Below, in pieces: positions 2 through 16,527 of a stretch of 45,884 nt of DNA. Each line of letters starts with the position of its first letter. Position 1 is the first letter of the stretch. The stretch is taken from sequence record DRR723986_1354. One strand, given 5' to 3'. Position numbers and translations under genes: made by a program. The notes beneath the pieces were generated by a model. The model saw only the letters and a list, made by a program, of their open reading frames with translations, was not told where the DNA came from and ran no database searches.

Positions 2-1999
2 CGCCCGGCCAGCTTCTCGTTCATCGAGGTCGACGGCACCGTCGCCAACCTGACCTATCAGGGCAACGACGGGGCCTCCTGCCGCGCGCCCGGGCCCTTC
101 GTCTCGACGGTCTTTGCCGAAGGGTCGATTTCCGGCACCCTCTACGAGGACGCCAACGGCAATGGCGGGCGTGACCCGGGCGAGGCCACCCTGCCCGCCG
201 GGATCACGGTGCAGCTGTTCGATGACAACGGCACGCCGGGGGACCTTTCCGACGACAGCCTTGCGGCCAGCGTCGAGACCCGGGCGGATGGCAGCTATGT
301 CTTCGATCAGGTCGACGCGACGCGCACATGGCGGATCGAGGTCGACCAGACCGACCCGGACATTCCCGCGACGCTCGTGGTCTCGACGACGAGCCCGATC
401 ACCGGCGTCACCGTCACCCAGGGCGCAGAGACGACCGATCAGGACTTCGGCTTCAGCGCCGGATCGCCCGAGGCCGACCTCTCGCTGACCAAGCAGGCCT
501 TCGACGCCACCGGCACGCCCATCGGGCTGGCCCCCGCCGGCACCGAGATCGACTTCGTCCTGAGCGTCACCAACGACGGGCCCTTCCCCGCCACGGGCGT
601 GCGGGTGCGCGACCGGATCCCCACGGGCTTCACCTATGTCTCCGACGATGCGGCGGCGCAGGGGGGCAGCTATGACGCGGGCACCGGCGTCTGGGTGGTG
701 GGCGACGTGGCCAATGGCGCGACCCGGACGCTGACCATCCGCGTCACCATGAACGCCGCCGGCGATCACACCAACGCCGCCGAGATCATCGCCTCGGACC
801 AGCCCGACCCCGACAGCGACCCCTCGACCGGCGCGCTGACGGACGACCTTGGCGACGGGGTGGCCGACGATGACGAGGCCAGCGCCACCGTGGTCTTCGA
901 CGGCACGGGCGCGACGCTTGCGGGGGTCGTCTTCCTCGATCACGGCGGCGGCGGCACCGGTACGGCCTATGACGGCGTGCAGGACGCGGACGAACCGGGC
1001 ACCGGGGCCGCCATCATCGAGGTCTTCGACAGCACCGGCGCGCTGGTGGGCAGCCCCGTGGTGGCCGCCGACGGACGCTGGTCGCTGACCCTGCCCGAAG
1101 GCTATCTGGATCGGGTGACCATCACGGTCACGCCCTCCAACGCCTACCGGGTGGTGTCCGAGGATCCGCGGACCCCGCCGGGCCTGTCCAACCCCGACCC
1201 GCGCGACGGCAGCTACAGCTTCCAGCCCGGACAGGGGGCGGATTACACCGACCTGCGCTTTGGCCTGATCCAGGACGCGCGCCTGACCGAAAGCCAGCAG
1301 GCCGCGATCCGGGCCGGTCAGGTGGTCGCGCTGCGTCACGACTATGTCGCGAATGCCGAGGGCACGGTGCAGTTCTCGACCGCGCTGATCGAGGAAAGCG
1401 TCTCCGGGCAGTTCGCGGTCGCCCTGTTCCTCGATCCCGCCTGCGACGGCACGCCCGTCACGGCGGTGGACGGGCCGGAGACCGTCGCGGCGGGCACGCG
1501 GATCTGCCTCGTGGCGCGCGTCACCGCCTCTGCGGCGGCGGCTCCGGGATCGACGATCGCCTTCGATCTGCTGGCGCAGACGACCTACGGGAGCAGCGGC
1601 CTGACCCAAGATCTGAGCAACACGGACGTGGTCCGGGTGGAAGGCTCGGACGGGCGGCTGGAACTGCGCAAGACCGTGCGCAACCTGACACAGGGCACGC
1701 CCGAAGGGGTCAGCAACGGCGCCGCGCTGGGGGACGTGCTGGAATACCGGATCTATCTGGAAAACCCCGGCAGCCTGTCGGCCACCCAGATCGTCATCCA
1801 CGACCGCACGCCGCCCTACACGCAGCTGGCCGAACCCGTGCCCAGCCCCGTCTCGGTCAGCCCGGACGTCGATTGCACCCTCGCGGAGCCGGCCTCGAAC
1901 ACCGTGGGCTATGCCGGATCGCTGCGCTGGGAATGCACGGGCACCCATGCGCCGGGCGCGACCGGGTCGGTCGCCTTCCGGGTCACGATCGCGCCTTAG
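2..1999 (+). CDS. C-terminal part of a large secreted DUF11/SdrD-B-like repeat protein (5' end outside window); candidate fibre tip/adhesin subunit
   Basis: Frame is open from nt 2 (RPASFSFIEV...GSISGTLYEDANGNGGRDPGE, SdrD-B-like). It has a complete DUF11 (ADLSLTK..VTNDGP..VRDRIP..HTNAAEI) and a terminal truncated DUF11 ending VAFRVTIAP*. Confidence 0.85.
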   Translation, partial: RPASFSFIEVDGTVANLTYQGNDGASCRAPGPFVSTVFAEGSISGTLYEDANGNGGRDPGEATLPAGITVQLFDDNGTPGDLSDDSLAASVETRADGSYVFDQVDATRTWRIEVDQTDPDIPATLVVSTTSPITGVTVTQGAETTDQDFGFSAGSPEADLSLTKQAFDATGTPIGLAPAGTEIDFVLSVTNDGPFPATGVRVRDRIPTGFTYVSDDAAAQGGSYDAGTGVWVVGDVANGATRTLTIRVTMNAAGDHTNAAEIIASDQPDPDSDPSTGALTDDLGDGVADDDEASATVVFDGTGATLAGVVFLDHGGGGTGTAYDGVQDADEPGTGAAIIEVFDSTGALVGSPVVAADGRWSLTLPEGYLDRVTITVTPSNAYRVVSEDPRTPPGLSNPDPRDGSYSFQPGQGADYTDLRFGLIQDARLTESQQAAIRAGQVVALRHDYVANAEGTVQFSTALIEESVSGQFAVALFLDPACDGTPVTAVDGPETVAAGTRICLVARVTASAAAAPGSTIAFDLLAQTTYGSSGLTQDLSNTDVVRVEGSDGRLELRKTVRNLTQGTPEGVSNGAALGDVLEYRIYLENPGSLSATQIVIHDRTPPYTQLAEPVPSPVSVSPDVDCTLAEPASNTVGYAGSLRWECTGTHAPGATGSVAFRVTIAP

Positions 2000-5054: not shown

Positions 5055-5527
5055 TCCTTGGCGCTCAGACGATCCATTTGCCAGATCGAACGGGAATAGA
5101 CAACTTCGGTCTGGAACGCCGGGTCGCTGTCATAGGGATAGATCAGCCACAACGGACCCTTGTCGCGGCGCGACATCGGCTCACCGTTCTGGTGATAGGC
5201 CACCAGCGGGGCCTCTGCGGTGATCTCGTCCAGAGGGATCTCTACGGCGTAATCGTTGATCGCCTGCGCGACGATCACCTCGGCCGAAATGTCGAGGGTC
5301 TCGATCAGGGAAGCCAGCGGCACGCCTTCGAAGGTCTGCGGCCCGTCCGTCCAGATCGTGCTGGTGGTGATCGTGCGGCTGTCTGCCATGGCCTTGAGGT
5401 CTTCGATCGTCAGCCGGGTGGGGACGTCCGTCTGGATGACCGTCAGGACCGTGTCGTCCTGAGCCTGCACGGCCAGCGGGGCAAGAGCCATCGCAGCGGC
5501 GCAGAGAATATGAGAGAACGGGCGCAT
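5051..5527 (-). CDS. Periplasmic molybdopterin-oxidoreductase-fold protein (COG3915-like), probable accessory sensor of the kinase
   Basis: GGAG RBS before ATG 5527. Signal peptide ends AVQA|QD. Motifs T.TIWTDG..FEGVPL, AINDY, NGEPMSRRDKGPLWLIYP, SRSIWQ. Confidence 0.75.
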   Translation of the reverse strand: MRPFSHILCAAAMALAPLAVQAQDDTVLTVIQTDVPTRLTIEDLKAMADSRTITTSTIWTDGPQTFEGVPLASLIETLDISAEVIVAQAINDYAVEIPLDEITAEAPLVAYHQNGEPMSRRDKGPLWLIYPYDSDPAFQTEVVYSRSIWQMDRLSAKE

Positions 5528-5610
5528 CAGTTTCTCCATTGTCGAAGTTGCATACGACGCGATACTAAAGAACAAGGGCGGGACTGGCCCATGGGATTAC
5601 GGCTAGCCCG

Positions 5611-5626
5611 GTATACGAAAGGCTAA
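5611..5626 (+). promoter_or_regulatory. Putative response-regulator operator box GTATAC-GAAA-GGCTAA
   Basis: Lies in the divergent promoter region; similar boxes at 6372-6387 (+), 2448-2463 (-) and 15731-15746 (+). Confidence 0.4.
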
Positions 5627-5678
5627 GAATCCGGTTCGAGCCGGTTCTGGCGTCAGGCACGAAGAAAGCAGGTGCACG

Positions 5679-6299
5679 ATGGCCCTCAGAGTTCTGATCG
5701 CAGACGATCATGACATGGTACGCGACACGTTCACCATGTACCTCGAAACCAGCGGCACGGCGCAGGCGATCACGGCAGGCTCCCTCGACGAGGCGGTGAA
5801 GCTCATGCAGAAGAGCGGCCCGTTCGATCTGGTCCTGCTGGATTACACCATGCCGGGGATGAAGGGGCTGGAGGGCCTCAAACAAGCCCTGTCGATCAGC
5901 GGCGGCACGCCCGTGGGCATCGTCTCGGGCACCGGAACGCGGCTTATCGCGCAGCAGGCGCTGGATATGGGGGCGGCGGGGTTCCTGCCGAAATCCATGC
6001 CCGCCAAGACCTTGGTGAACGCGGTCCGCTTCATGGCCATGGGCGAGATCTACGCCCCCGTGGATTTCATGTCCGGCAAGTCCGACCCCGAAGAGACGGA
6101 CTTCGAGAAGGACCTGTCAGAGCGGGAAAAGCAGGTGTTGCGCGGGCTCATGACGGCGAAGTCCAACAAGGAAATCGCCCTCGACCTCGAGCTTCAGGAG
6201 GTCACGATCAAGCTGCACGTCAAGACACTGTGCCGCAAGATCGGCGCAAAGAACCGCACCGATGCCGCCATGATCGCCCGGGACGCGGGCTTCGTCTGA
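5679..6299 (+). CDS. NarL/LuxR-family response regulator
   Basis: REC domain (IADDH, DLVLLDYTMPG, GFLPK) plus LuxR HTH (LSEREKQVL..SNKEIALDLELQEVTIKLHV). Confidence 0.95.
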   Translation: MALRVLIADDHDMVRDTFTMYLETSGTAQAITAGSLDEAVKLMQKSGPFDLVLLDYTMPGMKGLEGLKQALSISGGTPVGIVSGTGTRLIAQQALDMGAAGFLPKSMPAKTLVNAVRFMAMGEIYAPVDFMSGKSDPEETDFEKDLSEREKQVLRGLMTAKSNKEIALDLELQEVTIKLHVKTLCRKIGAKNRTDAAMIARDAGFV

Positions 6300-6529: not shown

Positions 6530-7042
6530 ATGTCATACTCCATCGCCAGCGTCAGCAAGGCCGTGGTCGCCGGTCTGAGCCTCAGCTTGGCCGCGACCGC
6601 GGTCTCGGCAGACGCGCTCGAAAGCACCTTCTCCTTCCGCATCGTCGAAGCCGACGCCGCAGGCGTGGAAACGCTGGTCGAGCGCAGCTCGGTCAAGCCC
6701 GGCGAAGTCATTCACTACGAGCTTCGCCACGAGAACAAGACCCAAGAGGACATGGCCGGTCTGGTCATCGCCGCCCCCGTCCCCGCCGGTGTGACCATCA
6801 CGCTGGGCGGCGAGGCAAGCTCTGTCCCGGCCGTCTTCGAGGTGCAGGCAGAGATGGACCCCGACTCCGAGGGGCTGGAATGGTCGACGCTTCCGGCCGT
6901 TCGCAAGGTCGCCGACGCGAATGGCGACCTCGTCGAGGAACCGCTGCCGGCAGACGAGATCGTCGCCGTCCGCTGGAGCCTGTCGGACGCGCTCGAGGCC
7001 GGTGACGCCGCCCTCAATTCCTATCGCGTCCGCGTGAACTAA
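6530..7042 (+). CDS. Small secreted single truncated-DUF11-like protein; candidate chaperone/cap
   Basis: Signal peptide ends AVSA|D. Core VKPGEVIHYELRHEN..LVIAAPVPAG..VRWSL..LEAG...SYRVRVN*. It lacks the canonical Lys and Asp and the terminal hairpin. Confidence 0.8.
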   Translation: MSYSIASVSKAVVAGLSLSLAATAVSADALESTFSFRIVEADAAGVETLVERSSVKPGEVIHYELRHENKTQEDMAGLVIAAPVPAGVTITLGGEASSVPAVFEVQAEMDPDSEGLEWSTLPAVRKVADANGDLVEEPLPADEIVAVRWSLSDALEAGDAALNSYRVRVN

Positions 7043-7090: not shown

Positions 7091-9733
7091 GTGACCCATC
7101 ATTCCGCAATCCTGCGCACCTCGAGTGCCGCAGCCATCTGTGTCGCGCTCGCGTCCATGGCTCATGCCGCCCCCGAAGCGGGCTCCGTCATCGGCAACCA
7201 GGCCGTGGCGACCTATACCAACGCTGCCGGCGACACGATCACCGTCACCTCGAACACCGTGGAAACGGTGGTCCAGCAGGTGGCCGGCGTGACGTTGACC
7301 TCGGACAACACCGAAAACGTCGCCCCCGGCGGCAAGGCCTTCCTGCCGCATATCATCACCAACGACGGTAACGGCGCCGACGCCTTCGACCTGACCGTCG
7401 CCGAGAACGACACCGGCGCGCTGGAGACCTCGCAGCTGGTGTTCTACCCGGACGCCAACATGGACGGCGTCGCGGACAGCGCCACGCCCCTGACCGAGAC
7501 CCCGGTTCTGGCCCCCGGCGAGCAGTTCGGTGTCGTGATCGAGGCCACCGTGCCCTCGACCAATGCCGCAGGCGCCACCGACACCATCACCGTGACCGCC
7601 ATCTCGAAGCTGGACGGCACCGTTCTGGCTACCAACACGGACACGCTGACCGTGTCGAACGACGCCATCATCGAGCTGGTCAAGTCGATGGTCGCCGACG
7701 CCTCCTCTGCCGGTGATCCCAACATCATCGACGCGGGCGACACCGTCACCGTGACCCTGACCTACTCCTCCACCGGCCTCGTCGCGGCGAACAACTACAC
7801 CGTGACCGACATTCTGGACGCGGGCTTCGAATACGTGCCGGGCACCGCCGTCTGGTCCGATGCCGCCGGAACGCTGGACGACAACAACGGCTCGACCGCG
7901 GTGGATGCCACCAACGGCAACGGCGAAGGCATCGCCTGGGATTACGACGACAACCAGACGGTCAACTTCAACATCTCCTCGGTCGGCTCGGGCCGTTCGG
8001 GCAGCGTGACCTTCCAGGCACGGATCGCCTCGACCGCGAATGCCGGGATCCTGACCAACGTCGCCAGCCAGAACGTCGACGGCGTCGACTTCCCGCCGTC
8101 GAACACCGCCTCGGTGACGGTCGCCAGCCAGTATTCGGTCTCCATCGCGGACACCGCGATCAACCCGGACGGCACCGCCAATGGCGCGGTCTCCTCGGCC
8201 ACCGACGACGACGCGGCGCAGAACGATGTCGTGACCGAGACCGGCGACGTCTTCCAAGGCGCCCGGATCCGCCACGAGTTCGTGCTGACCAACAACTCGA
8301 ACGAGGCCGACAGCCTGTCGCTGGACGTCTCGAACGTCGACTACCCGGCCGGGACCACCTTCCAGATCGTGGGCGCCGACGGCATCACCCCGGTCATCGG
8401 TTCGGTCGGACCGCTGGCCATCGGCGAAAGCACCAAGGTCACGCTGATCGCGACCCTGCCCACCAATGTGACCCCGACCGCGGCCGGCGCGACCAACTAC
8501 ACCGCGACCATGACCGTGACCTCGGATGCCTCGGGCGTCACCGACACATCGACCGCCGAATTCACCGGCGCGGTTCTGGCGGCCTCGGTCGACCTCGAAG
8601 CGGCGGGTGGTCTGGGTGACGGCGCGGCGCCCACGAATGGCGGCGCCCCCTGGGTCAGCAACACGACCGATCCGGGCGTCCCCACGACCTTCGACATGGT
8701 GGTCCAGAACAACGGCCCGGTCTCGGACAGCTACAACCTGTCGCTGGCCCAGCCGCTGCCCGCAGGCTGGACGGTGGAATTCCGTGACGCCGACGGCACC
8801 CTCGTGACCAACACCGGCACCATCCCCGCCGGCGGCACCGACACCTTCACCGTGACGGTCATTCCCGCAGCCGATGCGCCCCCGGCGGACACGCCGATCG
8901 ACATCCAGCTGGAAAGCGCCGTCTCCGGCCAGTCGGACCGCATCGTCAACCAGGTCACCGTGAACGAGATCTACGACGTGCAGATCCTCGAAGGGCAAAG
9001 CGTTCAGGCCTCGCCCGGTGGCGTGGTGGACATGCTCCACACGATCACCAACGAGGGCAACACCGCCATCACCGAGGGTGCGATCACGCAGACCGGCCTG
9101 ACCAACTTCTCGGGTGCGATCTTCTGGGACCAGAACGGCAACGGCGTGCTCGATGCAACGGACCCGGTGATCGACAACTTCGACGATCTGACCGACGGCA
9201 TCGCGCCGGGGACGAACGGTCTGGCCGCGGGTGACACGATCTCCGTCATCTACCGTGTGCAGACCCCCTCGACCGCGACTCCGGGTGTGTCGGAGGTCGG
9301 CACGCTGGCGGTCGGCACCTCGCTGAACGGTGGCACGGCAACGGATGCGGATACCGCGGACAACGCCAACGAGGACCGCATCACCATCATCGCCGGCGAC
9401 GTGACGCTGACCAAGTACCAGTACATCGACGCCGCCTGTGACGGGACCGTGGGCACCTTCACGAAGACGCGCCAGCCGGTCGAGCCCGGCCAGTGCATCC
9501 GCTACATGATCGAGGCCGAGAACACCGGCAGCTTCGCGGCGGATGATGTGGTCATCTCGGATGCGGCGCCTGCCTACACCACCATCACCAATTGCGGTGG
9601 ATCGTGCTCCGAAACGCTGTTCCCGGCTGGCAGCACTGCGACGATCACGTCCAGCGCCGTCTCCAGCGACCATGGAACGGTTCTGCCTGGTGGCGTCGCA
9701 CGGCTCGAATTCACCGTACAGGTGGACAACTGA
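7091..9733 (+). CDS. Secreted 880-aa multi-Ig/DUF11 protein; candidate major fibre subunit
   Basis: Signal peptide ends AHA|A. Rich in T/A/G/D/V/N, repeated TNxGN Ig domains, one complete internal DUF11 and a truncated C-terminal DUF11. No membrane or cell-wall anchor visible. Confidence 0.9.
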   Translation: MTHHSAILRTSSAAAICVALASMAHAAPEAGSVIGNQAVATYTNAAGDTITVTSNTVETVVQQVAGVTLTSDNTENVAPGGKAFLPHIITNDGNGADAFDLTVAENDTGALETSQLVFYPDANMDGVADSATPLTETPVLAPGEQFGVVIEATVPSTNAAGATDTITVTAISKLDGTVLATNTDTLTVSNDAIIELVKSMVADASSAGDPNIIDAGDTVTVTLTYSSTGLVAANNYTVTDILDAGFEYVPGTAVWSDAAGTLDDNNGSTAVDATNGNGEGIAWDYDDNQTVNFNISSVGSGRSGSVTFQARIASTANAGILTNVASQNVDGVDFPPSNTASVTVASQYSVSIADTAINPDGTANGAVSSATDDDAAQNDVVTETGDVFQGARIRHEFVLTNNSNEADSLSLDVSNVDYPAGTTFQIVGADGITPVIGSVGPLAIGESTKVTLIATLPTNVTPTAAGATNYTATMTVTSDASGVTDTSTAEFTGAVLAASVDLEAAGGLGDGAAPTNGGAPWVSNTTDPGVPTTFDMVVQNNGPVSDSYNLSLAQPLPAGWTVEFRDADGTLVTNTGTIPAGGTDTFTVTVIPAADAPPADTPIDIQLESAVSGQSDRIVNQVTVNEIYDVQILEGQSVQASPGGVVDMLHTITNEGNTAITEGAITQTGLTNFSGAIFWDQNGNGVLDATDPVIDNFDDLTDGIAPGTNGLAAGDTISVIYRVQTPSTATPGVSEVGTLAVGTSLNGGTATDADTADNANEDRITIIAGDVTLTKYQYIDAACDGTVGTFTKTRQPVEPGQCIRYMIEAENTGSFAADDVVISDAAPAYTTITNCGGSCSETLFPAGSTATITSSAVSSDHGTVLPGGVARLEFTVQVDN

Positions 9734-9749
9734 CCTGGTCCACCTGACT

Positions 9750-9777
9750 GGCCCCCGCCTTCGGGCGGGGGCCTTTC
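9750..9777 (+). terminator. Intercistronic GC hairpin with UUCG loop (leaky terminator or mRNA stabiliser)
   Basis: GGCCCCCGCC-TTCG-GGCGGGGGCC followed by TTTC, between the 880-aa and 1926-aa genes. Confidence 0.7.
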
Positions 9778-9828: not shown

Positions 9829-12800
9829 ATGCGCAGTTTTCTTCGCTTTGCCGGCCCGGAAGTGACCAGGTTCCTTGTCCTTGCCGCTGCCGCGCTTTTC
9901 CTTGCCCTCCCTGCGGGACCCTCGGCTGCCCAGCCGTCCGCCGCCGGAACGGTCATCCGAAACATCGCTCAGGTCACCTATTTCGACACCGGCCTCGGCA
10001 CGCTCGTCACGCTCGAGTCCAACGCCGTCGAAGCACGCGTCAGCGTCGTTCCGGCGCTCGAGATCTCCGGCCGCGAAACCCTGCTGCTGTCGCGCGGCGC
10101 GCTGGACCAGTTCCTCTTCGAGATCGCCAATACCGGCAACGTCGCGCTGGACGTGATCCCCGCCGTGACCCTGACGGGGGACGCGGGCCAGATCCGGAAC
10201 CCGCGCCTTTTCCTCGACCTCGATGGCAACGGCCTTGTGGACGCGGGAGAGCCGGAAGTCGCCGCCGGGGACACCCTCGAGCTTTCCGCAGGGCAGCGGC
10301 TGGACCTGATCTACAGCTTCTCGCTCGCCTCCACCGCCCGGATCGGCGACGCCGTCGACGTGACCCTGACCGCCGTGGCGACGCCGCGCCTGTCGCCGGG
10401 CACGGATGCACCCCTGGACCTCACCCCGGTGTCGGGATCGGGTCTTGGCCGCGTCGAGGTTCTGGACGCCACGCTGGAGATCGAGAAATCCCAGGCCCTC
10501 ACGCCCGGCGCCGGGGAAACGCAGATTTCCTACGGCCTTGCGCTGCGCAACAACTCCGACGCGGTCGTGGCCGGCTATGCAGAGATCGACGGCGCGCCCC
10601 TGCGCATCGACGGCGCCGTGGCGACCGGGGTTCTTCTGCGCGATGAAATCCCCCTCAACGCCCGGTTCTCCGCGATCACCCGCAGCGGCGGCATGACCGC
10701 GCTTTATCACCGCGCCGGGAGCGCGCCGCACGACTACACCACCACCGCACCCGCCGACGCCGCCGACATCGACGCCGTCGCCTTCTTCCTGCCCGGAGAT
10801 TTCCCCGTCGGCCGGTCCGAGGACACGGGCTTCGCCGTCGTCGTCGAGCACGCGCTCGGCGCGGTGGAGGTCGAAAACACCGCCACGGGCTTTCTGTCCA
10901 CGCCCTCGGGCCTCGCCGAGGTGCCCTCGAACAGCGTGCGCACGGTTCTGAACGACGCCACCCCCGGGCAGCTTGCCTTCATCGACCCGGTGACCGGGCA
11001 GGACACGCCCTTTGGCGCGCTCGACAGCAATCTCGTGACCCGTCTGGTGGCGGGTGCCTGCAACCTTTCCACCGCGCCCGAGACCGTCGAGATCACCCTG
11101 CAAAGCCTCCAGACCGGCGATGTCGAAGTCACCACGGCGCGCGAGACCGGACCCAACACCGGCGTCTTCCTGATCGCGCCGCTGCCGGTGGCCGAGATGG
11201 CCCTTTCGCGGGCCCGCGACGGGGTGATGGCTTCGGGCCGGGGCGACACGATCCGCGCCACCGCGCGCTGCGCAGGCCAGTCCCTTGCCGCCAGCATCGC
11301 CATCGCGCCGGGCAACGTCGTCTTCGACGCGATCGGCAACGACCCCGTCGAGGGCGTGGACATCGTGCTGGTCGACGCCGCCAGCGGCATCGCCGCCGCG
11401 CGCGCCACCACCGATGCCCGCGGCTACTTCGCCTTCGGCGACATCCCCGCGGGGCGTTACGCCTATAGCGTTCCCGATGCACCGGCGTGGCGGTTCCCCT
11501 CGGTCCGCAGCGACTTTCGCGGCTTTGGCCGGATCGTCACCGATGCGGGCTTCGGCGCCGGGTTCGACCATGCGGGCGGGTTCCTGATGCCGTCGGACGT
11601 CCCGCTCGACCCGGCCTATGCCACCCCCGTGGCTCTGGAAAAGACCGCCGACCGCGAGCGCGTGACGCAGGGCGAATTCGTGACCTACTCGCTGACGGTG
11701 ACGAACAACATGCGCCAGGCGCTGTTCGGCGCCGAGATCCTCGACCGCCCGCCCCACGGAATGGTCCTCGTCGAGGGCTCCGTGACGCTGGACGGCAAGC
11801 GGATCGCGGACCCCATCCGCGACGCACAGGGCGACCTGCGCTTCGAGCTTGGCAGCGTTGCGCCGCTCGACCGGCTGGACCTGACCTACGTCCTCTCCGT
11901 CGGCGCCGCCGCGCGCGAGGGGACGCTGGAGAACACGGCGCTTCTGTCGGGCCGTCAGGCCGGCACCGGCAGCCTGATGCAGTCGGCCCCGGCCCGCGCC
12001 CTCGTGCGGCTGGACAACTCCGGCGGCGTCTTCGCCCGGCAGGGCACCGTCGTCGGCACGGTCTTCATGGATTGCGACGGCAACGGCATCCGGGGCGACT
12101 GGCGCGAGCCGGGCATCCCCGGCGTGCGCATCGTCACGCAAGAAGGGCTATTCGTCGTCACCGACCGCAACGGGCAGTATTCCCTGCCCGGCCTGCGCCC
12201 GGCCACGCATGCCTTCCAGGTGCAGGCCGCGACCCTGCCCGAGGGCACCGAGGTCACGGTGACGCGCACCAATGACCTGCGCCGGGGCGGATCGCGGATC
12301 GTGCCGCTGCGCCGGGGTGAATTGCGCAGCGAAAATTTCGCGGTCGAGGCCTGCACCCCCGCCGCCATGGCCGAAATCGAGGCGCGCCGCGCGCATTTCG
12401 ACGAAGCCGCCACCCCGGACACCATGCGCGCCGCGGACATGCCCATCGAGGGGCTTCGCAATCCGCAGCGCTCCACCCGGACAGAGGCGGGCGTGGCGAC
12501 GACCACCCAGCTGACCCCCGCCATGATGGCAGCGGCCGCCGCCACCTCCGGCGAAGAGGCCAGCGCGCAGGTCTTGCCGCCGCTGGCCACCAAGGCCCGC
12601 GAGGCGCGTCGCCCGCTGGAGGCCATGGTCAAGGCGCTCGACCCAGAGCCCGGCTTTCTCGACATCGAGGACGGCGAAACCCTGACCCGCCGCACCCGGA
12701 ACATCCGGGTGAAGGGCAAGGCCGACCTGACGCTGGGCCTGCTGCTGAACGGCCGCGCCCTTGGCGCCGACCGCATCGGCGAGCAAAGCAGCTGGGCCGC

Positions 12801-15609
12801 GCGCAACGTGCAGGCGGCCGAGTTCGTGGCGGTCAAGCTGCGCCCGGGCGAGAACACCCTGACGCTGGTCGGCCGCGACGGTTTCGGCATCGAACGCATG
12901 CGCCACGAGATCACCGTGACCGCCCCCGGCGACCCGGCCCGGATCGAGATCACCGCCCCCGCAGAGGCCAGCGCCGATCCGGTCAGCGGCGTGCCCGTCG
13001 TCGTCCGCATCCTCGACGCGCGCGGCCTGCCGGTTCCGGCCTCGGCCACGGTCACGCTGGGCGCCGACCGGGCGCTGTGGGACGTGACCGACATCCGCCC
13101 CGGCACCCCCGGCGTGCAGGCCTATATCGACAACGGCGAGGCGACCTTCACCCTGATCCCGCCGCAGGTTTCCGGCCCCGACCTCATCACCGTGACCAGC
13201 GGCTTTGCCCGCGCCGAGGCGCGCATGGTCTTCACCCCCAACCTCGACGAGCGCATCCTGATCGGCGTGATCGAGGGCGCGGTCTCGCTGGGGGGCACGA
13301 ACCGCGGCGCGATCCTGCCCAAGGAGCAGTTCAGCCATTTCGAGGACACCGTCACCGGCCTGCGCGGCGAGCTCTACCTCAAGGGCGCGATCCGTGGCGA
13401 TGCGCTGCTGACCCTGCGCTACAGTTCCGACACCGACACCGAAGACCGCCTGTTCCGCGACATCCGGGGCGACGAATACTACCCGGTCTACGGCGACAAT
13501 TCGGAACGCGGCTGGGACGCGCAATCCTCGACCAACCTCTTCATCAAGGTGGAAAAGGGCCGGTCCTACGCACTCTACGGCGATATCGCGATCCAGCCCG
13601 AGGCATCCTCGTTCAAGCTGGGCGGGATGCAGCGCGTGGCCACCGGCGCCAAGGCGCATTGGGAGAACGACCGCGTTGCCGTCACCGTCTTTGCCGCGCG
13701 CACCGCGCAGGAGCAGAAGATCGTGGAATTCGCCGGGCGCGGCGTCTCGGGGCCCTACGATCTGGCGCTCGACGGCTATGTCGACGGCTCCGAACGGGTC
13801 GAGATCCTCGTCCGCGACGAGGACGGCGGCGACATCCTGCAAAGCATCCCGCTGCGGCGCGGCACCGACTACGTCCTCGATTTCTTCCGCGACACGATCA
13901 CCTTCGACGATCCGGTCCGGCAGTTCGACTTCGACGGCAACCCGGTGTCCGTCCGCGTGACCTACGAGGTCGAGAACGACGAGGCGGAGCGCTACTGGCT
14001 TTACGGCGGCGAGGTGAACTATGCCGCGACCGACCGCACCAGCCTTGGCCTGCGCGCCGTTCATGCGGATGCGGCCATCGGCAACCCCGCCCGCGAGCGC
14101 CTGCAATCGGCCTATGTGCGCCACGAGACCCTGCGTGGCGGCATCTGGGAGGCCGAGGTCGCCCGCTCCGAGGACAAGGATCAGCGCAGCGACATGGCCG
14201 CCCGCCTGTCCTATGACATCGTCACCGAGACCGAGCGCCTGTCCTTCGAGGCGATCCACACCGGGCAGGACTTCCGGGCCGGGGGCCTTGCGCGCCCGGG
14301 CACCACGCAGCTGCGCCTGAGCTACGGGCTGGAGATCGACCCCAAGAGCGATCTGGAACTGGCAGCGGAATACGTCCGCGACCGCAACGCCGACAGCACG
14401 CGCACCACCGTAGAGGCCGTCTATTCGCGGCGGTTCAACGATGGTTTCCGCGGAGAGATCGGCGTGGAGCTGGCCCGCACGGATCGCGACGGCCGCGTCG
14501 ACGATCAGGCAGCGCTGCTGCTGGGCGGCCACTGGAACCCGGTAAACCGGCCCGGTGTGTCGGTGCGGGCCGAGTTGCGCCTGCCCTTCGCCGGCGACAA
14601 CCGCGACCCTGCCGAACTGACCCTTGGCATGTACCGCGAGGCCAAGCCCGGCTGGCGCGTCCACAGCGAGATCGAACTCAGCTTCGGCGACGACACGATC
14701 ATGACCCGCGCCCGCTATGGCATGGAATACCAGCTCAACGACTGGCTGTCCGGCAGCACCGAGTTCAGCCAGGCCGCCGGAGAGCTGGAGGAGACGTGGC
14801 ATCAGGGCGTTTCGGCGGTCTGGCAGGTCAACGACCTGACCACCCTGCGCGCCGACATAGAGCATTCGCGCGGCGCGCAGACCGGCGAGGATGCCCTGAC
14901 CAGCGTCGCGCTGGGGGCGAAATGGCACGACAGTTCGGAAAGCCTCGTGGGTGATGCGGACTTCGACGCCACCTTCGAGGACAGCGGCAACACCTACTAC
15001 GCCTCGCTGGGCATGGCCGCACAGCTGAACGACGAATGGACCATGCTGGGCCGGACCCGGATCGCCATCGACCAGCGCAACGGCGAGGATCACCTGCGCG
15101 CACGCACCCGCCTTGGCGCCGCCTACCGCCCGAAGGAGGAGTCGCGTCTCGACGTTCTGGCCTGGTACGAGCATCGCCTCGAGCAGAAGCACGGCCGCAC
15201 CGAATCCCACCTGTGGTCGGTGGACGCGAGCTATGAGGCGAACGAAGATCTGCGGCTGAACGGAAAATACGCCGGTCAGCACCAGACGGTGTCGGGCAAC
15301 GGCTTCGAGGCCTCGACCACCACGCAACTGGTTCAGGCGGGGGCCTACATGGACTTTGCCGACGACCGGTTCCAGCTTGGCCTGAACGCCACGCATCTGT
15401 GGGACAGCCGGGGCGGCAGCACCACCGGGCTGGGCGCCGAGCTTGGGTTCTCGCCCGCCGAGGGCACCCTGCTGGCGGTCGGTTACAACTCTGTCGATGG
15501 CCGCGTGGCCGGGATGCAGGGTCTCTATCAGGACGGCGTCTACTTCCGCTTCAACCTGCTGTTCGACGACAGCCTCTGGAGCAAGCTCGACGGATTTCTC
15601 GGCAACTGA
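9829..15609 (+). CDS. 1926-aa secreted protein: N-terminal Ig/DUF11/SdrD-B domains plus a large C-terminal outer-membrane beta-barrel
   Basis: GGAG RBS; signal peptide ends SAA|Q; two complete DUF11 domains; SdrD-B-like GTVFMDCDGNGIRG..EPGIPGVRI. The region from about 13255 consists of amphipathic beta-strands and ends GVYFRFNLLF plus a short tail. Confidence 0.88.
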   Translation: MRSFLRFAGPEVTRFLVLAAAALFLALPAGPSAAQPSAAGTVIRNIAQVTYFDTGLGTLVTLESNAVEARVSVVPALEISGRETLLLSRGALDQFLFEIANTGNVALDVIPAVTLTGDAGQIRNPRLFLDLDGNGLVDAGEPEVAAGDTLELSAGQRLDLIYSFSLASTARIGDAVDVTLTAVATPRLSPGTDAPLDLTPVSGSGLGRVEVLDATLEIEKSQALTPGAGETQISYGLALRNNSDAVVAGYAEIDGAPLRIDGAVATGVLLRDEIPLNARFSAITRSGGMTALYHRAGSAPHDYTTTAPADAADIDAVAFFLPGDFPVGRSEDTGFAVVVEHALGAVEVENTATGFLSTPSGLAEVPSNSVRTVLNDATPGQLAFIDPVTGQDTPFGALDSNLVTRLVAGACNLSTAPETVEITLQSLQTGDVEVTTARETGPNTGVFLIAPLPVAEMALSRARDGVMASGRGDTIRATARCAGQSLAASIAIAPGNVVFDAIGNDPVEGVDIVLVDAASGIAAARATTDARGYFAFGDIPAGRYAYSVPDAPAWRFPSVRSDFRGFGRIVTDAGFGAGFDHAGGFLMPSDVPLDPAYATPVALEKTADRERVTQGEFVTYSLTVTNNMRQALFGAEILDRPPHGMVLVEGSVTLDGKRIADPIRDAQGDLRFELGSVAPLDRLDLTYVLSVGAAAREGTLENTALLSGRQAGTGSLMQSAPARALVRLDNSGGVFARQGTVVGTVFMDCDGNGIRGDWREPGIPGVRIVTQEGLFVVTDRNGQYSLPGLRPATHAFQVQAATLPEGTEVTVTRTNDLRRGGSRIVPLRRGELRSENFAVEACTPAAMAEIEARRAHFDEAATPDTMRAADMPIEGLRNPQRSTRTEAGVATTTQLTPAMMAAAAATSGEEASAQVLPPLATKAREARRPLEAMVKALDPEPGFLDIEDGETLTRRTRNIRVKGKADLTLGLLLNGRALGADRIGEQSSWAARNVQAAEFVAVKLRPGENTLTLVGRDGFGIERMRHEITVTAPGDPARIEITAPAEASADPVSGVPVVVRILDARGLPVPASATVTLGADRALWDVTDIRPGTPGVQAYIDNGEATFTLIPPQVSGPDLITVTSGFARAEARMVFTPNLDERILIGVIEGAVSLGGTNRGAILPKEQFSHFEDTVTGLRGELYLKGAIRGDALLTLRYSSDTDTEDRLFRDIRGDEYYPVYGDNSERGWDAQSSTNLFIKVEKGRSYALYGDIAIQPEASSFKLGGMQRVATGAKAHWENDRVAVTVFAARTAQEQKIVEFAGRGVSGPYDLALDGYVDGSERVEILVRDEDGGDILQSIPLRRGTDYVLDFFRDTITFDDPVRQFDFDGNPVSVRVTYEVENDEAERYWLYGGEVNYAATDRTSLGLRAVHADAAIGNPARERLQSAYVRHETLRGGIWEAEVARSEDKDQRSDMAARLSYDIVTETERLSFEAIHTGQDFRAGGLARPGTTQLRLSYGLEIDPKSDLELAAEYVRDRNADSTRTTVEAVYSRRFNDGFRGEIGVELARTDRDGRVDDQAALLLGGHWNPVNRPGVSVRAELRLPFAGDNRDPAELTLGMYREAKPGWRVHSEIELSFGDDTIMTRARYGMEYQLNDWLSGSTEFSQAAGELEETWHQGVSAVWQVNDLTTLRADIEHSRGAQTGEDALTSVALGAKWHDSSESLVGDADFDATFEDSGNTYYASLGMAAQLNDEWTMLGRTRIAIDQRNGEDHLRARTRLGAAYRPKEESRLDVLAWYEHRLEQKHGRTESHLWSVDASYEANEDLRLNGKYAGQHQTVSGNGFEASTTTQLVQAGAYMDFADDRFQLGLNATHLWDSRGGSTTGLGAELGFSPAEGTLLAVGYNSVDGRVAGMQGLYQDGVYFRFNLLFDDSLWSKLDGFLGN

Positions 15610-15825: not shown

Positions 15826-16527
15826 ATGAACAGGAAATCACTCGCCGTCGCGGTGTCGCTCGCGGCCCTCTCGATCGCCCCGGATGCCTTCGCGCAGGGC
15901 GTGTCGTTCACCATGAAGGACATCACCGGCGCGGGGGCCGCCGACTTCGGCCTCGGGATCGAGGCCGTGGCCGCGCCCATCTTCATCGACCGCCCCGTCG
16001 TGGCAGAGCCGAGCGGGCAGGCGCCCTTCATCTCGTCCCGGTCGAGCGCCCCTGCCGCGCAGCTGCGCGACCTGATCGGCCACGCCGAAGCCAGCCGCGA
16101 GGGCTATGACAGCGTCCAGCACGGCGCCCGCGTGCGTCCGCAGAAGCGCCCCACGGAGATGACGGTCGCCGAGATCTTCGCCTGGATCAAGGCGACACCG
16201 GGCCAGCCCCATGCCATCGGTCGCTATCAGTTCATCCCCAAGACCCTGCGGGCGCTCGTGCGGCGCGGCGGGATCGACCCGCAGACCCGCTTTTCGCCGG
16301 CCCTGCAGGATCATCTGGCCAACATGCTGCTGGAAGACGCGGGCTACCAGCCCTTCACCGCGGGCGCGATGTCCAAGGAAACCTTCATGTACAATCTCGC
16401 CGGGATCTGGGCCGGGTTGCCCCTGCCCTCGGGGCGGTCGCGCTATCACGGCTACGCCGGGAACCGGGCCACCATCAGCTGGCATCTCTATGACACCGAA
16501 GTGTCCCGGATCTTCGCGGGCCGCTAA
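15826..16527 (+). CDS. Secreted lysozyme-like (muramidase/lytic transglycosylase fold) protein
   Basis: AGGAG RBS; signal peptide ends AFA|Q. Motifs LRDLIGHAE, GYD, AIGRYQFIPKTL, FSPALQD, LAGIWAGLP resemble lambda-R/GH104-like enzymes. Confidence 0.7.
   Translation: MNRKSLAVAVSLAALSIAPDAFAQGVSFTMKDITGAGAADFGLGIEAVAAPIFIDRPVVAEPSGQAPFISSRSSAPAAQLRDLIGHAEASREGYDSVQHGARVRPQKRPTEMTVAEIFAWIKATPGQPHAIGRYQFIPKTLRALVRRGGIDPQTRFSPALQDHLANMLLEDAGYQPFTAGAMSKETFMYNLAGIWAGLPLPSGRSRYHGYAGNRATISWHLYDTEVSRIFAGR

What the first reader, a model, noticed from the sequence alone, without database searches (positions are those of the whole stretch)
9829..15609. Giant outer-membrane barrel protein that begins like a fibre subunit: anchor and possibly translocon
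Seen: after the signal peptide come the same donor hairpin (Asn45, nt 9961) and the same following Ig domain as in the 880-aa protein (IANTGN..LFLDLDGNGLVD..LSAGQ versus ITNDGN..FYPDANMDGVAD..LAPGE). About 780 C-terminal residues are amphipathic strands, much longer than a 12-strand autotransporter barrel. Inference: it is an usher-like pore that exports subunits and also terminates and anchors the fibre with its own donor hairpin.
Basis: partly seen in the sequence, partly recalled or inferred. Interest (0 to 1): 0.76.

Follow-up and report, generated by a model that had tools for sequence, protein, structure and literature searches.

The report
Giant barrel anchor of split-domain fibre
This 1,926-residue protein joins a pilin-like plug-in tip and a stalk of Ig-like domains to a huge predicted outer-membrane barrel, and it probably roots, and may export, a click-together surface fibre of a kind I could not find described in print.

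Summary
ORF 9829-15609 encodes a 1,926-aa secreted protein. Its mature N-terminus repeats the first 170 residues of the upstream 880-aa protein (29% identity, E 2e-7). AlphaFold2 folds its last ~770 residues as one very large beta-barrel (about 38 strands, range 36-40) that matches only outer-membrane barrels.

The shared N-terminal hairpin is the missing end of a DUF11/CLIPPER isopeptide domain. The 880-aa protein's last domain stops exactly where that hairpin should begin. It keeps the bond-forming Lys and Asp, while the hairpins carry the Asn.

The three genes (170 aa, ~900 aa, ~1,900-2,300 aa) recur in this order across Proteobacteria, Verrucomicrobiota, Acidobacteriota and Nitrospirota, and no other partner gene is conserved.

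Best reading: the giant is the cell-proximal subunit. Its hairpin plugs into the shaft subunit, probably locked covalently, and the barrel anchors the fibre. That the barrel is also the export pore is plausible: it is very large, has a plug-like insert where ushers have theirs, FimD is among the top structural matches, and no other secretion gene is conserved. This is unproven, and there is no sequence similarity to ushers. The complex prediction could not be run. I found no published description.

The parts
6530..7042 (+). 170-aa secreted single-domain protein: an incomplete CLIPPER-like domain that ends on the same final strand as the shaft's acceptor domain but lacks the Lys and Asp. Candidate non-covalent hairpin acceptor (tip cap or periplasmic hairpin chaperone).
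   Evidence: 56 sequences, no conserved K or D. hhalign against the shaft's last domain: probability 91.5%, E 8.7e-7. tblastn hits in 56 of 80 related loci, 55 of them upstream on the same strand.
7091..9733 (+). 880-aa shaft subunit: signal peptide, N-terminal donor hairpin, chain of Ig-like/CLIPPER domains, and a last domain that lacks its terminal hairpin.
   Evidence: A 600-1100-aa ORF with the hairpin motif and the terminal-strand pattern is present in 52 of 80 related loci plus the window.
7178..7276 (+). Donor hairpin of the shaft subunit (residues 30-62, Asn36).
   Evidence: I34, N36, A38, A40, S54 and N55 are invariant in 32 of 32 sequences. It is the most conserved 33-residue window of the protein: the five best of 822 windows start at residues 30-34. 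It aligns to columns 131-160 of a complete internal CLIPPER domain (E 1.4e-4).
9386..9730 (+). Acceptor domain of the shaft subunit (residues 766-880): a CLIPPER domain truncated before its last hairpin, with Lys775 and Asp824.
   Evidence: Pfam DUF11 profile positions 8-84 of 114, ending at the protein's end. hhalign to columns 5-124 of 161 of a complete domain, probability 97.6%, E 4e-12. K in 48 of 53 and D in 53 of 53 sequences.
9750..9773 (+). GC-rich RNA stem-loop between the shaft gene and the giant gene: possible attenuator that sets a many-to-one subunit ratio.
   Evidence: 10-bp stem with UUCG loop, MFE -29.5 kcal/mol, z -3.07. The simple terminator scan did not call it.
9829..15609 (+). 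The giant gene (1,926 aa).
9829..9930 (+). Signal peptide (about residues 1-34).
   Evidence: Hydrophobic helix 10-26 in the model. The Ala-rich cleavage region was read by eye.
9943..10041 (+). Donor hairpin of the giant (residues 39-71, Asn45).
   Evidence: G40, I43, A47, S64 and N65 are conserved in at least 90% of 32 sequences. At position 45: N in 24 of 32 rows, S in 4, A, G and V in one each, and one gapped row. Four short strands span 42-70, with block pLDDT 70-82.
10042..12348 (+). Stalk: about six beta-sandwich domains (residues 72-840). They include a DUF7925-like domain, a carboxypeptidase-regulatory-like domain (498-548), a complete CLIPPER domain (about 600-730, with K605, D639, N702) and an SdrD_B domain (744-813).
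   Evidence: Pfam. AF2 pLDDT mostly 85-95. K605, D639 and N702 are at least 90% conserved.
12349..12663 (+). Helix plus low-confidence, poorly conserved linker (residues 841-945).
   Evidence: pLDDT 28-55 over 861-921. Conservation 0.33, the lowest of the protein.
12676..13248 (+). Two Ig-like domains directly N-terminal to the barrel (residues 950-1140).
   Evidence: AF2 pLDDT about 87-91. Conservation 0.52.
13255..15564 (+). Predicted outer-membrane beta-barrel, about 38 strands (residues 1143-1912), followed by a 14-residue helical tail.
   Evidence: Matches: SlpA Z 17.5, rmsd 6.9, 367 aligned; FimD Z 17.9 to 15.5; LptD, MtrB and SprA by Foldseek. No Pfam or PDB sequence relative.
13336..13608 (+). 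Most conserved stretch of the giant (residues 1170-1260, 'LKG..GD.LLTLRY' ... 'RLFRDI..DEYYPVYGD'). Function unexplained.
   Evidence: Conservation 0.70 against 0.47 overall. Invariant columns. Residues 1203-1230 are modelled at pLDDT below 50.
13741..13941 (+). Small beta insert (about residues 1305-1371) after the 6th or 7th barrel strand: plug-like by position.
   Evidence: DSSP strands at fragment positions 224-260. FimD translocation domain 3ohn_A residues 206..654 align to model 141..564. The usher plug lies in the beta6-beta7 loop (PMC4356140, passages).
15826..16527 (+). 233-aa secreted lysozyme-like protein. It neighbours the cassette in Rhodobacteraceae only and may remodel peptidoglycan.
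   Evidence: phrog_90 endolysin, E 7.3e-16. No Pfam hit. Found in 9 of 80 loci, eight directly downstream on the same strand and one (L010) about 2 kb further on and on the opposite strand.
5679..6299 (+). LuxR-type response regulator upstream, with hybrid histidine kinase 2448-5054 (-): likely regulators of the operon.
   Evidence: Pfam and NCBIfam. Response-regulator hits in 18 of 80 loci, seven of them Rhodobacteraceae loci at the same upstream position.

Best explanation
The giant is the cell-proximal subunit and membrane root of a surface fibre built from a split CLIPPER (DUF11) isopeptide domain.

Shown by sequence: the 880-aa shaft protein ends in a CLIPPER domain that lacks its last beta-hairpin. 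That hairpin, carrying the bond-forming Asn, sits at the mature N-terminus of both the shaft protein and the giant.

Inferred assembly: each hairpin inserts into the unfinished domain of the neighbouring subunit, so the subunits join head to tail. The Lys (K775) and Asp (D824) of the acceptor and the Asn (N36 of the shaft, N45 of the giant) of the donor then form a spontaneous intermolecular isopeptide bond. This is a natural counterpart of SpyTag/SpyCatcher.

The giant donates a hairpin but has no acceptor domain. It therefore ends the chain on the cell side: hairpin, about six Ig-like stalk domains, a flexible ~100-residue linker, two Ig-like domains, then an outer-membrane barrel of about 38 strands.

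Inferred topology: the linker runs through the barrel lumen, as in autotransporters. The two Ig-like domains and a small plug-like insert sit at or in the periplasmic mouth.

Less certain: the same barrel is the conduit for the folded stalk and shaft subunits.

The 170-aa protein is an acceptor-type domain without Lys or Asp. It probably binds a hairpin reversibly, either as a distal cap or as a periplasmic chaperone.
For: (1) N-terminal homology between the giant and the shaft: 29% identity over 168 aa, E 2e-7.

(2) Split-domain tiling. The shaft's last domain aligns to columns 5-124 of a complete internal CLIPPER domain (probability 97.6%, E 4e-12), and the N-terminal hairpin aligns to columns 131-160 (E 1.4e-4). 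Pfam DUF11 covers profile positions 8-84 of 114 and stops at the protein's end.

(3) In crystal structure 9IFR the isopeptide Asn806 lies in the 'l.N.a.v' motif, Lys715 in strand A and Asp748 in 'v.v.D.l' (PMC12617251 passages; alignment). These are the positions of N36/N45, K775 and D824.

(4) Conservation. N36, K775 and D824 are invariant in 32 of 32 shaft homologues from several phyla. In the wider set, K is present in 48 of 53 and D in 53 of 53. The hairpin is the most conserved window of the shaft protein. The giant's hairpin frame is at least 90% conserved, with N45 in 24 of 32 rows.

(5) All 52 shaft homologues plus the window's end within 0-3 residues of the strand that precedes the missing hairpin.

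(6) The cassette is conserved in order and strand. tblastn hits: small protein in 56 of 80 loci, shaft in 71 of 80, giant in 80 of 80. Clustering of all ORFs found no other widely conserved neighbour.

There are 2,182 cluster representatives at E <= 1e-3.

(8) Barrel: AF2 pLDDT 81.3, pTM 0.72. Only outer-membrane barrels match, namely SlpA, FimD, LptD, MtrB and SprA.

(9) Some relatives carry 9-15 complete tandem DUF11 domains in one chain on the same C-terminal module (P0189, P0197, P0250). So the module roots CLIPPER stalks whether or not they are split.

(10) A stable RNA hairpin follows the shaft gene, which fits a many-to-one stoichiometry.
Against: There is no experimental or co-folding evidence. 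The complex prediction could not be run.

N45 is replaced (S, A, G or V) in 7 of the 31 giants that have a residue at that position (32 rows, one gapped), and the acceptor Lys is missing in 5 of 53 shaft homologues. The covalent lock therefore cannot be universal.

The hairpin-alone hhalign match is modest (probability 53%, E 1.4e-4). The hairpin alone finds no Pfam family.

In the monomer model the giant's hairpin is predicted at fair confidence (pLDDT 70-82). That is compatible with it packing on its own chain.

Strand count, barrel closure, lumen occupancy and the side of the membrane on which the stalk lies were not verified, because no coordinates were available. Export through the barrel is pure inference.

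There is no sequence similarity to ushers.
Confidence: 0.6

Rival explanations
1. Anchor only. The hairpin-mediated attachment is real, but the barrel is merely a very stable membrane root, filled by its own plug and Ig-like domains. The shaft subunits leave the periplasm by another route, for example a type II secretion system or a different copy of the machinery.
For: Nothing tested here shows passage through the lumen. A plug-like insert and two adjacent Ig-like domains could fill the barrel permanently. Large barrels without export function exist, such as SlpA, the joint best structural match (PMC9388160 passages).
Against: Only three genes are conserved around the barrel gene across phyla, and none is another secretion component. 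A mere anchor does not need about 38 strands. FimD ushers tie for the best match, and the insert sits where ushers carry their plug. The giant's own ~800-residue stalk must cross the outer membrane somehow.
Confidence: 0.25
2. Self-contained autotransporter-like adhesin with a two-partner-like cargo. The conserved N-terminal hairpin is an export or recognition signal read by the barrel protein, like a TPS domain, and not a structural donor. The 880-aa protein is released or loosely bound, and no polymer forms.
For: The hairpin is strongly conserved at the mature N-terminus of both proteins, as a targeting signal would be. Some relatives with the same barrel module lack the hairpin and carry their whole stalk in one chain.
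Against: This does not explain why the shaft's last domain is truncated exactly before the hairpin position. It does not explain why Lys and Asp of an isopeptide triad stay conserved there without an Asn in the same domain, or why the hairpin supplies that Asn.
Confidence: 0.1
3. Complementation in cis, or with the 170-aa protein only. Each hairpin folds back on its own chain, or is held permanently by the small acceptor protein. The proteins are then monomeric fibrillar adhesins that merely share an unusual N-terminal element.
For: The monomer model gives the giant's hairpin pLDDT 70-82. The small protein is an acceptor-type domain.
Against: The giant has no acceptor domain for cis completion. 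The small protein lacks the Lys and Asp that are conserved in the shaft's acceptor. A rod of seven or more domains would have to bend into a ring for cis completion of the shaft.
Confidence: 0.07

Closest known systems
Chaperone-usher pili (Fim/Pap): usher FimD/PapC with terminator/anchor subunit FimI/PapH
   Same: Ig-like subunits have an unfinished fold that is completed by the N-terminal element of the next subunit. There is an acceptor-only element and a chain-ending proximal subunit. The outer-membrane barrel has an inserted small beta domain after strand 6 or 7, where ushers have their plug (beta6-beta7 loop; PMC4356140 passages). Ig-like domains flank the barrel. FimD chains tie for best structural match (Z 17.9, rmsd 14.4, 376 aligned; 3ohn_A Z 15.5, rmsd 6.4, 305 aligned).
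   Different: No sequence similarity: no PF00577 hit, and hhalign against FimD gives probability 1.2%. About 38 strands instead of 24. The donor is a two-strand hairpin of a CLIPPER domain, not a single strand of a pilin fold. There is no PapD-like chaperone gene. The terminator and the barrel are one polypeptide. A covalent lock is likely.
CLIPPER (DUF11, PF01345) intramolecular isopeptide domain of fibrillar adhesins, PDB 9IFR (PMC12617251)
   Same: Same domain family (Pfam hits above threshold). Same Lys-Asp-Asn triad positions. The giant and the shaft also contain complete CLIPPER domains.
   Different: In the described cases the bond is within one domain of one chain. Here the domain is divided between two polypeptides, so the bond would join subunits.
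'Exchange and lock' fibres: Clostridium perfringens BsaA (TasA family; bioRxiv 10.1101/2024.11.04.621531, abstract and outline read) and the Sulfolobus thread (PMC9715654, search listing only)
   Same: An N-terminal donor element inserts into the neighbouring subunit, and an intermolecular isopeptide bond follows.
   Different: Different folds (TasA-like and archaeal thread subunit). Those are monoderm or archaeal envelopes with no outer-membrane barrel. The donor there is a single strand.
SpyTag/SpyCatcher-type split isopeptide domains (PMC6539128, search listing; the rest recalled)
   Same: A peptide fragment of an isopeptide domain docks into the remainder and bonds spontaneously.
   Different: Those are engineered from a CnaB2 domain of a Gram-positive adhesin. 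This would be a natural split of a CnaA-like CLIPPER domain, used for polymerisation.
Very large single-chain outer-membrane barrels: SlpA (30 strands; PMC9388160), SprA of the type 9 translocon (36 strands, recalled), and three Deinococcus radiodurans proteins predicted as 38-stranded (PMC9388160 passages; its SI Table S3 not seen)
   Same: The size class is the same. SlpA is a joint best structural match (Z 17.5, rmsd 6.9, 367 aligned). SprA is a protein-conducting pore for folded cargo.
   Different: No sequence relationship was detected. SprA matches weakly (Foldseek E 7e-5, TMq 0.15; VIA Z 10.0). SlpA has an SLH/coiled-coil periplasmic part, not an Ig-like stalk.
Classical autotransporters (type Va secretion)
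   Same: One chain carries an N-terminal passenger, a linker and a C-terminal barrel. The likely topology has the linker in the lumen.
   Different: About 38 strands instead of 12. No Autotransporter Pfam hit. The passenger is made of Ig-like domains and is extended by separate subunits.

Membership tests
Outer-membrane usher (PapC/FimD, Pfam PF00577) | Sequence match to the Usher family | tested here: not met
   No PF00577 hit at E <= 0.01 on the whole protein or at E <= 10 on residues 1100-1424. hhalign of the family profile against E. coli K-12 FimD gives probability 1.2%.
Outer-membrane usher (PapC/FimD, Pfam PF00577) | 24-stranded barrel with an Ig-like plug inserted in the beta6-beta7 loop | tested here: inconclusive
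   About 38 strands by DSSP, not 24. A small four-strand insert does follow the 6th or 7th strand. FimD chains tie with SlpA for best match (Z 17.9-15.5). Ushers were not in the top 50 of the wide search. No coordinates were inspected.
Outer-membrane usher (PapC/FimD, Pfam PF00577) | Partner PapD-like periplasmic chaperone and pilin-fold subunits in the operon | tested here: not met
   The 170-aa and 880-aa proteins hit only DUF11-type families. No other conserved neighbour was found.
CLIPPER / DUF11 isopeptide domain (PF01345) | Pfam match above the gathering score | tested here: met
   Giant: 36.3 bits against a cutoff of 24.6 (residues 601-708). Shaft: 28.7 bits. TIGR01451 repeat: 43.6 and 42.4 bits against a cutoff of 24.
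CLIPPER / DUF11 isopeptide domain (PF01345) | Lys (strand A), Asp and Asn ('l.N.a.v') triad | tested here: met
   Complete domain of the giant: K605, D639 and N702 are each at least 90% conserved. Split domain: K775 and D824 in the shaft, N36 and N45 in the hairpins.
CLIPPER / DUF11 isopeptide domain (PF01345) | The isopeptide bond actually forms (here, between chains) | not testable with these tools
   This needs mass spectrometry or a structure.
Classical autotransporter (type Va) | 12-stranded C-terminal barrel of the Autotransporter family (PF03797) | tested here: not met
   No such Pfam hit. The barrel has about 38 strands.
Type 9 secretion translocon SprA | Sequence or close structural match to SprA | tested here: inconclusive
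   No family hit in Pfam or NCBIfam. Structural matches are weak: 8gl8_A E 7e-5, TMq 0.15; 6h3i_A Z 10.0, rmsd 7.0, 304 aligned.
TasA/BsaA 'exchange and lock' fibres | TasA-like fold of the subunits | tested here: not met
   The subunits hit only DUF11-type and Ig-like families. The resemblance is mechanistic only.

The most novel reading that the evidence does not exclude
This is a new class of pilus in bacteria with two membranes. Its subunits polymerise without a sortase or a chaperone, by inserting an N-terminal beta-hairpin into a split CLIPPER domain and locking it with a spontaneous intermolecular Lys-Asn isopeptide bond. The chain ends in a subunit fused to the largest single-chain outer-membrane barrel yet seen (about 38 strands). 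That barrel is a distant, enlarged analogue of the usher and conducts the folded, covalently linked fibre through the outer membrane.
Probability: 0.4. Interest if true: 0.9.

Novelty: categorically new. Interest (0 to 1): 0.8.

Why it matters
If the reading is right, many Gram-negative lineages carry a self-contained three-gene kit for a covalently linked surface fibre that belongs to none of the textbook pilus classes. Those lineages include marine Rhodobacteraceae, Acinetobacter and Moraxellaceae, Burkholderiales, Geobacteraceae, Verrucomicrobiota, Acidobacteriota and Nitrospirota.

It would matter in four ways:
- It would show that nature uses a SpyTag/SpyCatcher-like split domain to polymerise proteins.
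- It would provide a barrel larger than SprA as a candidate pore for folded proteins.
- It would give function to thousands of 'hypothetical' or 'DUF11 domain-containing' giants.
- It would offer new self-ligating parts for protein engineering.

The system is easy to test in harmless, culturable marine bacteria.

Tried and rejected
Complex prediction (shaft residues 745-880 with giant residues 35-200). Each time the queue was full or the machine gave no usable answer, so there is no result of any kind.

Expression: no RNA holder was listed.

Whole genome: none is held for this window, so paralogues elsewhere were not sought.

Hairpins alone against Pfam: no DUF11 hit, because the sequences are too short. 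A single CLIPPER domain of the giant against PDB sequences found nothing. The profile did find 9IFR.

Rosetta-stone fusions. The longest relatives (P0181, P0183, P0189, P0197, P0250) are not shaft-plus-giant fusions but giants with longer stalks.

Apparent stand-alone barrel on a Devosia plasmid. It aligns over the whole module (probability 100%). It has no signal peptide, and the upstream ORF breaks off just after an SdrD_B domain, so it is most likely one frameshifted giant gene. I rejected it as evidence for an unfused barrel. Four of 16 short representatives inspected (P0207, P0261, P0262, P0263) do start with a signal-peptide-like N-terminus by eye. Their context was not examined.

Ushers were absent from the top 50 of the wide structural search. 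They appeared only in the second look at Foldseek's candidates.

The protein Atlas gave only unnamed outer-membrane or hypothetical clusters.

Literature. Searches found no description of this system. Hits for 'DUF11' with word-start matching were mostly DUF11xx families (for example the tafi paper PMC11821415, which concerns DUF1102). The Litorilinea preprint (10.1101/2025.08.19.671072, passages read) concerns a single-chain 49-domain DUF11 filament. Supplements, including SI Table S3 of PMC9388160, were not seen.
Full report
WHAT IS THERE

The window is GC-rich (about 64-73%). Its closest protein relatives are from Rhodobacteraceae: Marinovum, Salipiger, Sagittula and Aquicoccus, at 77-79% identity over the barrel module. 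The finding's ORF, 9829-15609 (+), is open for 1,926 aa, and an AGGAG lies 8 nt before the ATG.

It is the last of three co-oriented genes:
- a 170-aa secreted protein (6530-7042);
- an 880-aa secreted protein (7091-9733);
- the giant.

Upstream lie a LuxR-type response regulator and a hybrid histidine kinase. Downstream lies a 233-aa secreted protein.

CHECK OF THE OBSERVATION

Both parts hold.

BLASTP of the giant's first 300 residues against the 880-aa protein gives 29% identity over 168 residues (E 2e-7). Asn45 is the N of 'VIRNIAQV', and its codon begins at nt 9961.

AlphaFold2 of residues 1100-1926, with 34 aligned sequences, gave mean pLDDT 81.3 and pTM 0.72. DSSP lists 32 consecutive strands from residue 1372 to 1912, with short loops and mostly alternating hydrophobicity. 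Six to eight further strands lie between 1143 and 1302, and a small four-strand insert sits between the two groups. I estimate about 38 barrel strands (range 36-40).

All strong structural matches are outer-membrane barrels:
- Foldseek: LptD, MtrB, SlpA, BtuB, SprA.
- Wide VIA search: SlpA at Z 17.5 (rmsd 6.9, 367 aligned), then porins at Z 12-14.5.
- Second look at Foldseek's candidates: FimD ushers at Z 17.9, 17.3, 16.9, 16.6 and 15.5, tied with SlpA at 17.5 and 17.4.

The module has no Pfam family and no sequence relative in the PDB.

WHAT THE SHARED N-TERMINUS IS

DUF11 has been renamed CLIPPER. It is a CnaA-like domain with an intramolecular isopeptide bond Lys715-Asn806, catalysed by Asp748, in crystal structure 9IFR (PMC12617251, passages). 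The profile alignment to 9IFR places the residues as follows:
- the Lys in strand A;
- the Asp in the 'v.v.D.l' strand;
- the Asn in the 'l.N.a.v' strand, which opens the final hairpin.

The 880-aa protein's last domain matches DUF11 profile positions 8-84 of 114 and then the protein ends. Profile-profile comparison shows two things:
- This last domain aligns to columns 5-124 of a complete internal CLIPPER domain of the same protein (probability 97.6%, E 4e-12).
- The mature N-terminal hairpin aligns to columns 131-160 (E 1.4e-4, probability 53%).

The two ends of the protein therefore tile one domain.

In 32 homologues from several phyla the hairpin residues I34, N36, A38, A40, S54 and N55 are invariant, and so are the acceptor residues K775 and D824. 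In the wider set of 53 sequences, the Asp is present in 53 and the Lys in 48. The hairpin is the most conserved 33-residue window of the protein: the five best of 822 windows start at residues 30-34. The 52 homologues and the window's own protein all end within a few residues of the strand that precedes the missing hairpin.

The giant carries the same hairpin. G40, I43, A47, S64 and N65 are at least 90% conserved. N45 is present in 24 of 32 rows, with S in 4, A, G and V in one each, and one gapped row. The giant has no truncated acceptor domain. Its own CLIPPER domain (about residues 600-730) has a complete triad, K605/D639/N702.

The 170-aa protein aligns to the acceptor domain up to the same last strand (probability 91.5%, E 8.7e-7). 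It has neither the Lys nor the Asp in any of 56 sequences.

CONTEXT AND DISTRIBUTION

Of these, 597 encode a relative, and the best 80 loci were kept. They come from Alpha-, Beta-, Gamma- and Deltaproteobacteria, Nitrospirota, Verrucomicrobiota, Acidobacteriota, Gemmatimonadota and others.

tblastn results across the 80 loci:
- Small protein: 56 of 80 loci, 55 of them upstream on the same strand.
- 880-aa protein: 71 of 80. A few of these hits fall on the giant's own N-terminal part.
- The giant's stalk: 80 of 80.

Several loci that lack the upstream genes are truncated contigs. Clustering of all ORFs found no other widely conserved neighbour. Response regulators occur in 18 of 80 loci, and the 233-aa protein in 9.

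The representative library holds 2,182 relatives of the barrel module at E <= 1e-3 and 620 at E <= 1e-30. Most are 1,900-2,400 aa long, with the module at the C-terminus.

The cassette also sits on a 55-kb plasmid of Pacificitalea manganoxidans and on a 302-kb plasmid of Acinetobacter haemolyticus, annotated only with domain names.

Relatives P0189, P0197 and P0250 carry 9, 15 and 13 complete tandem DUF11 domains on the same C-terminal module and have no N-terminal hairpin. The module therefore roots CLIPPER stalks whether or not the stalk is divided into subunits.

ANATOMY OF THE GIANT

This comes from AlphaFold2 of residues 1-1144 (31 sequences, pLDDT 83.8), with Pfam:

| Residues | Part |
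|---|---|
| ~1-34 | signal peptide |
| 39-71 | hairpin |
| 72-840 | about six beta-sandwich domains, including a carboxypeptidase-regulatory-like domain, a CLIPPER domain and an SdrD_B domain |
| 841-945 | helix plus a low-confidence, poorly conserved linker |
| 950-1140 | two Ig-like domains |
| 1143-1912 | barrel, with the insert at ~1305-1371 |
| after 1912 | 14-residue helical tail |

The most conserved part of the whole protein is residues 1170-1260 (conservation 0.70 against 0.47 overall). Its centre is modelled poorly. I have no explanation for it.

HOW IT MOST LIKELY WORKS

Shown: a CLIPPER domain is split between polypeptides, the three bond-forming residues are conserved on the appropriate pieces, the gene cassette is conserved, and the giant ends in a very large predicted barrel.

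Inferred: hairpins insert head to tail, and the Lys-Asn bond then forms between chains. The giant donates a hairpin but cannot accept one, so it is the proximal end of the fibre and fixes it to the outer membrane. The small protein cannot bond covalently, so it either caps the free distal hairpin or chaperones hairpins in the periplasm.

The flexible linker probably threads the lumen as in autotransporters. This follows from the usual periplasmic location of barrel termini, which I recall and did not test.

More speculative is that the barrel conducts the folded stalk and shaft. Arguments for this:
- its size;
- the insert after strand 6 or 7, where ushers carry their plug (PMC4356140, passages);
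- FimD among the best structural matches;
- the absence of any other conserved secretion gene.

Arguments against calling it an usher:
- no Usher Pfam hit;
- hhalign against FimD gives probability 1.2%;
- a different strand number;
- no PapD-like chaperone.

COMPARISON WITH WHAT IS KNOWN

The system works like chaperone-usher pili in its logic (acceptor-only element, shaft, chain-ending anchor, barrel with plug), but it fails their membership tests.

The 'insert then lock' chemistry has precedents in other folds. One is C. perfringens BsaA (bioRxiv 10.1101/2024.11.04.621531, abstract and outline read). Another is the Sulfolobus thread (PMC9715654, search listing only). A third is the engineered SpyTag/SpyCatcher system (PMC6539128, search listing; the rest recalled).

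A 2026 review of bacterial surface structures lists chaperone-usher, type IV, sortase and curli assembly, and mentions isopeptide cross-linking only for sortase pili of monoderms. I read passages from the first 300,000 characters of that review (PMC13721041).

The only printed trace of barrels this size that I found is a remark that three Deinococcus radiodurans proteins are predicted to be 38-stranded (PMC9388160, passages; its supplementary table was not seen).

Ten literature searches found no description of the system.

EARLIER NOTES OF THIS SCAN

I had written down the split-domain and isopeptide reading (note) before looking up earlier notes. The look-ups showed that other agents reached the same reading for similar loci in at least eleven other genomes, including an estimate of about 38 strands. 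These are unchecked AI notes and not independent evidence. They gave me the Deinococcus lead, which I checked.

WHAT IS MISSING

No RNA data were listed. No whole genome is held. Topology, strand count and passage through the pore remain unverified.

VERDICT

The system appears undescribed and widespread. Interest 0.8.

Noticed in passing
window 9750-9773: A perfect 10-bp GC stem with a UUCG loop lies 17 nt after the stop of the 880-aa gene and 56 nt before the giant's start (MFE -29.5 kcal/mol, z -3.07). It is followed by only a weak T run. It could be an attenuator that lets more shaft mRNA than giant mRNA be made.
   Followed up: partly
window 15826-16527: A 233-aa secreted protein with a lysozyme/endolysin-like domain (phrog_90, E 7.3e-16; no Pfam hit). 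It neighbours the giant in 9 of 80 loci, all Rhodobacteraceae: directly downstream on the same strand in eight, and about 2 kb further on and on the opposite strand in L010. It may be a peptidoglycan-remodelling helper for the envelope-spanning structure.
   Followed up: partly
window 13336-13608 (giant residues 1170-1260): The most conserved segment of the giant across phyla, with many invariant Gly, Tyr, Asp and Arg residues ('RLFRDI..DEYYPVYGD'). AlphaFold2 nevertheless models its centre at pLDDT below 50. Its role (gate, calcium site or partner contact) is unexplained.
   Followed up: no
window 2448-6299: A hybrid PAS histidine kinase with receiver and Hpt domains (minus strand) and a LuxR-type response regulator (plus strand) lie directly upstream. 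The regulator keeps this position in seven Rhodobacteraceae loci, and response regulators also precede the cassette in some Verrucomicrobiota and Nitrospira loci.
   Followed up: partly
L030, L046, L049, L059, L070 (shaft homologues); P0116, P0118, P0137, P0182, P0229 and others (giants): A minority of homologues lack the acceptor Lys (5 of 53) or the giant's donor Asn (7 of the 31 giants with a residue there). Some lineages would therefore attach non-covalently.
   Followed up: partly
L083 (Pacificitalea manganoxidans plasmid pDY25-D, 55 kb) and hit H2 (Acinetobacter haemolyticus 302-kb plasmid): The whole cassette (regulator, small protein, 'NEW3 domain' 880-aa protein, 2,032-aa 'carboxypeptidase-like regulatory domain' protein) is plasmid-borne in at least one Roseobacter-group strain. 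A distant homologue of the giant is plasmid-borne in an Acinetobacter. The system can therefore travel on plasmids.
   Followed up: partly
L082:1-8550 (Devosia neptuniae plasmid): A protein annotated 'TonB-dependent receptor' (1,118 aa, no signal peptide) is the barrel module of this family (hhalign probability 100%). The upstream 'SdrD B-like' ORF breaks off just after the SdrD_B domain. Together they look like one giant gene interrupted by a frameshift, and the annotation as a TonB receptor is probably wrong.
   Followed up: partly
P0197 (3,080 aa relative): Its N-terminus shows a GDSL-lipase-like motif by eye, ahead of 15 DUF11 repeats and the barrel module. Pfam did not report a lipase family at E <= 1e-5. 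If real, the module can also display enzymes.
   Followed up: no
window 17666-20119 (-): A full-length LigD (phosphoesterase, ligase and primase-polymerase domains) lies next to the locus. A formate/nitrite transporter gene ends at 17635. Both appear unrelated to the fibre genes.
   Followed up: no
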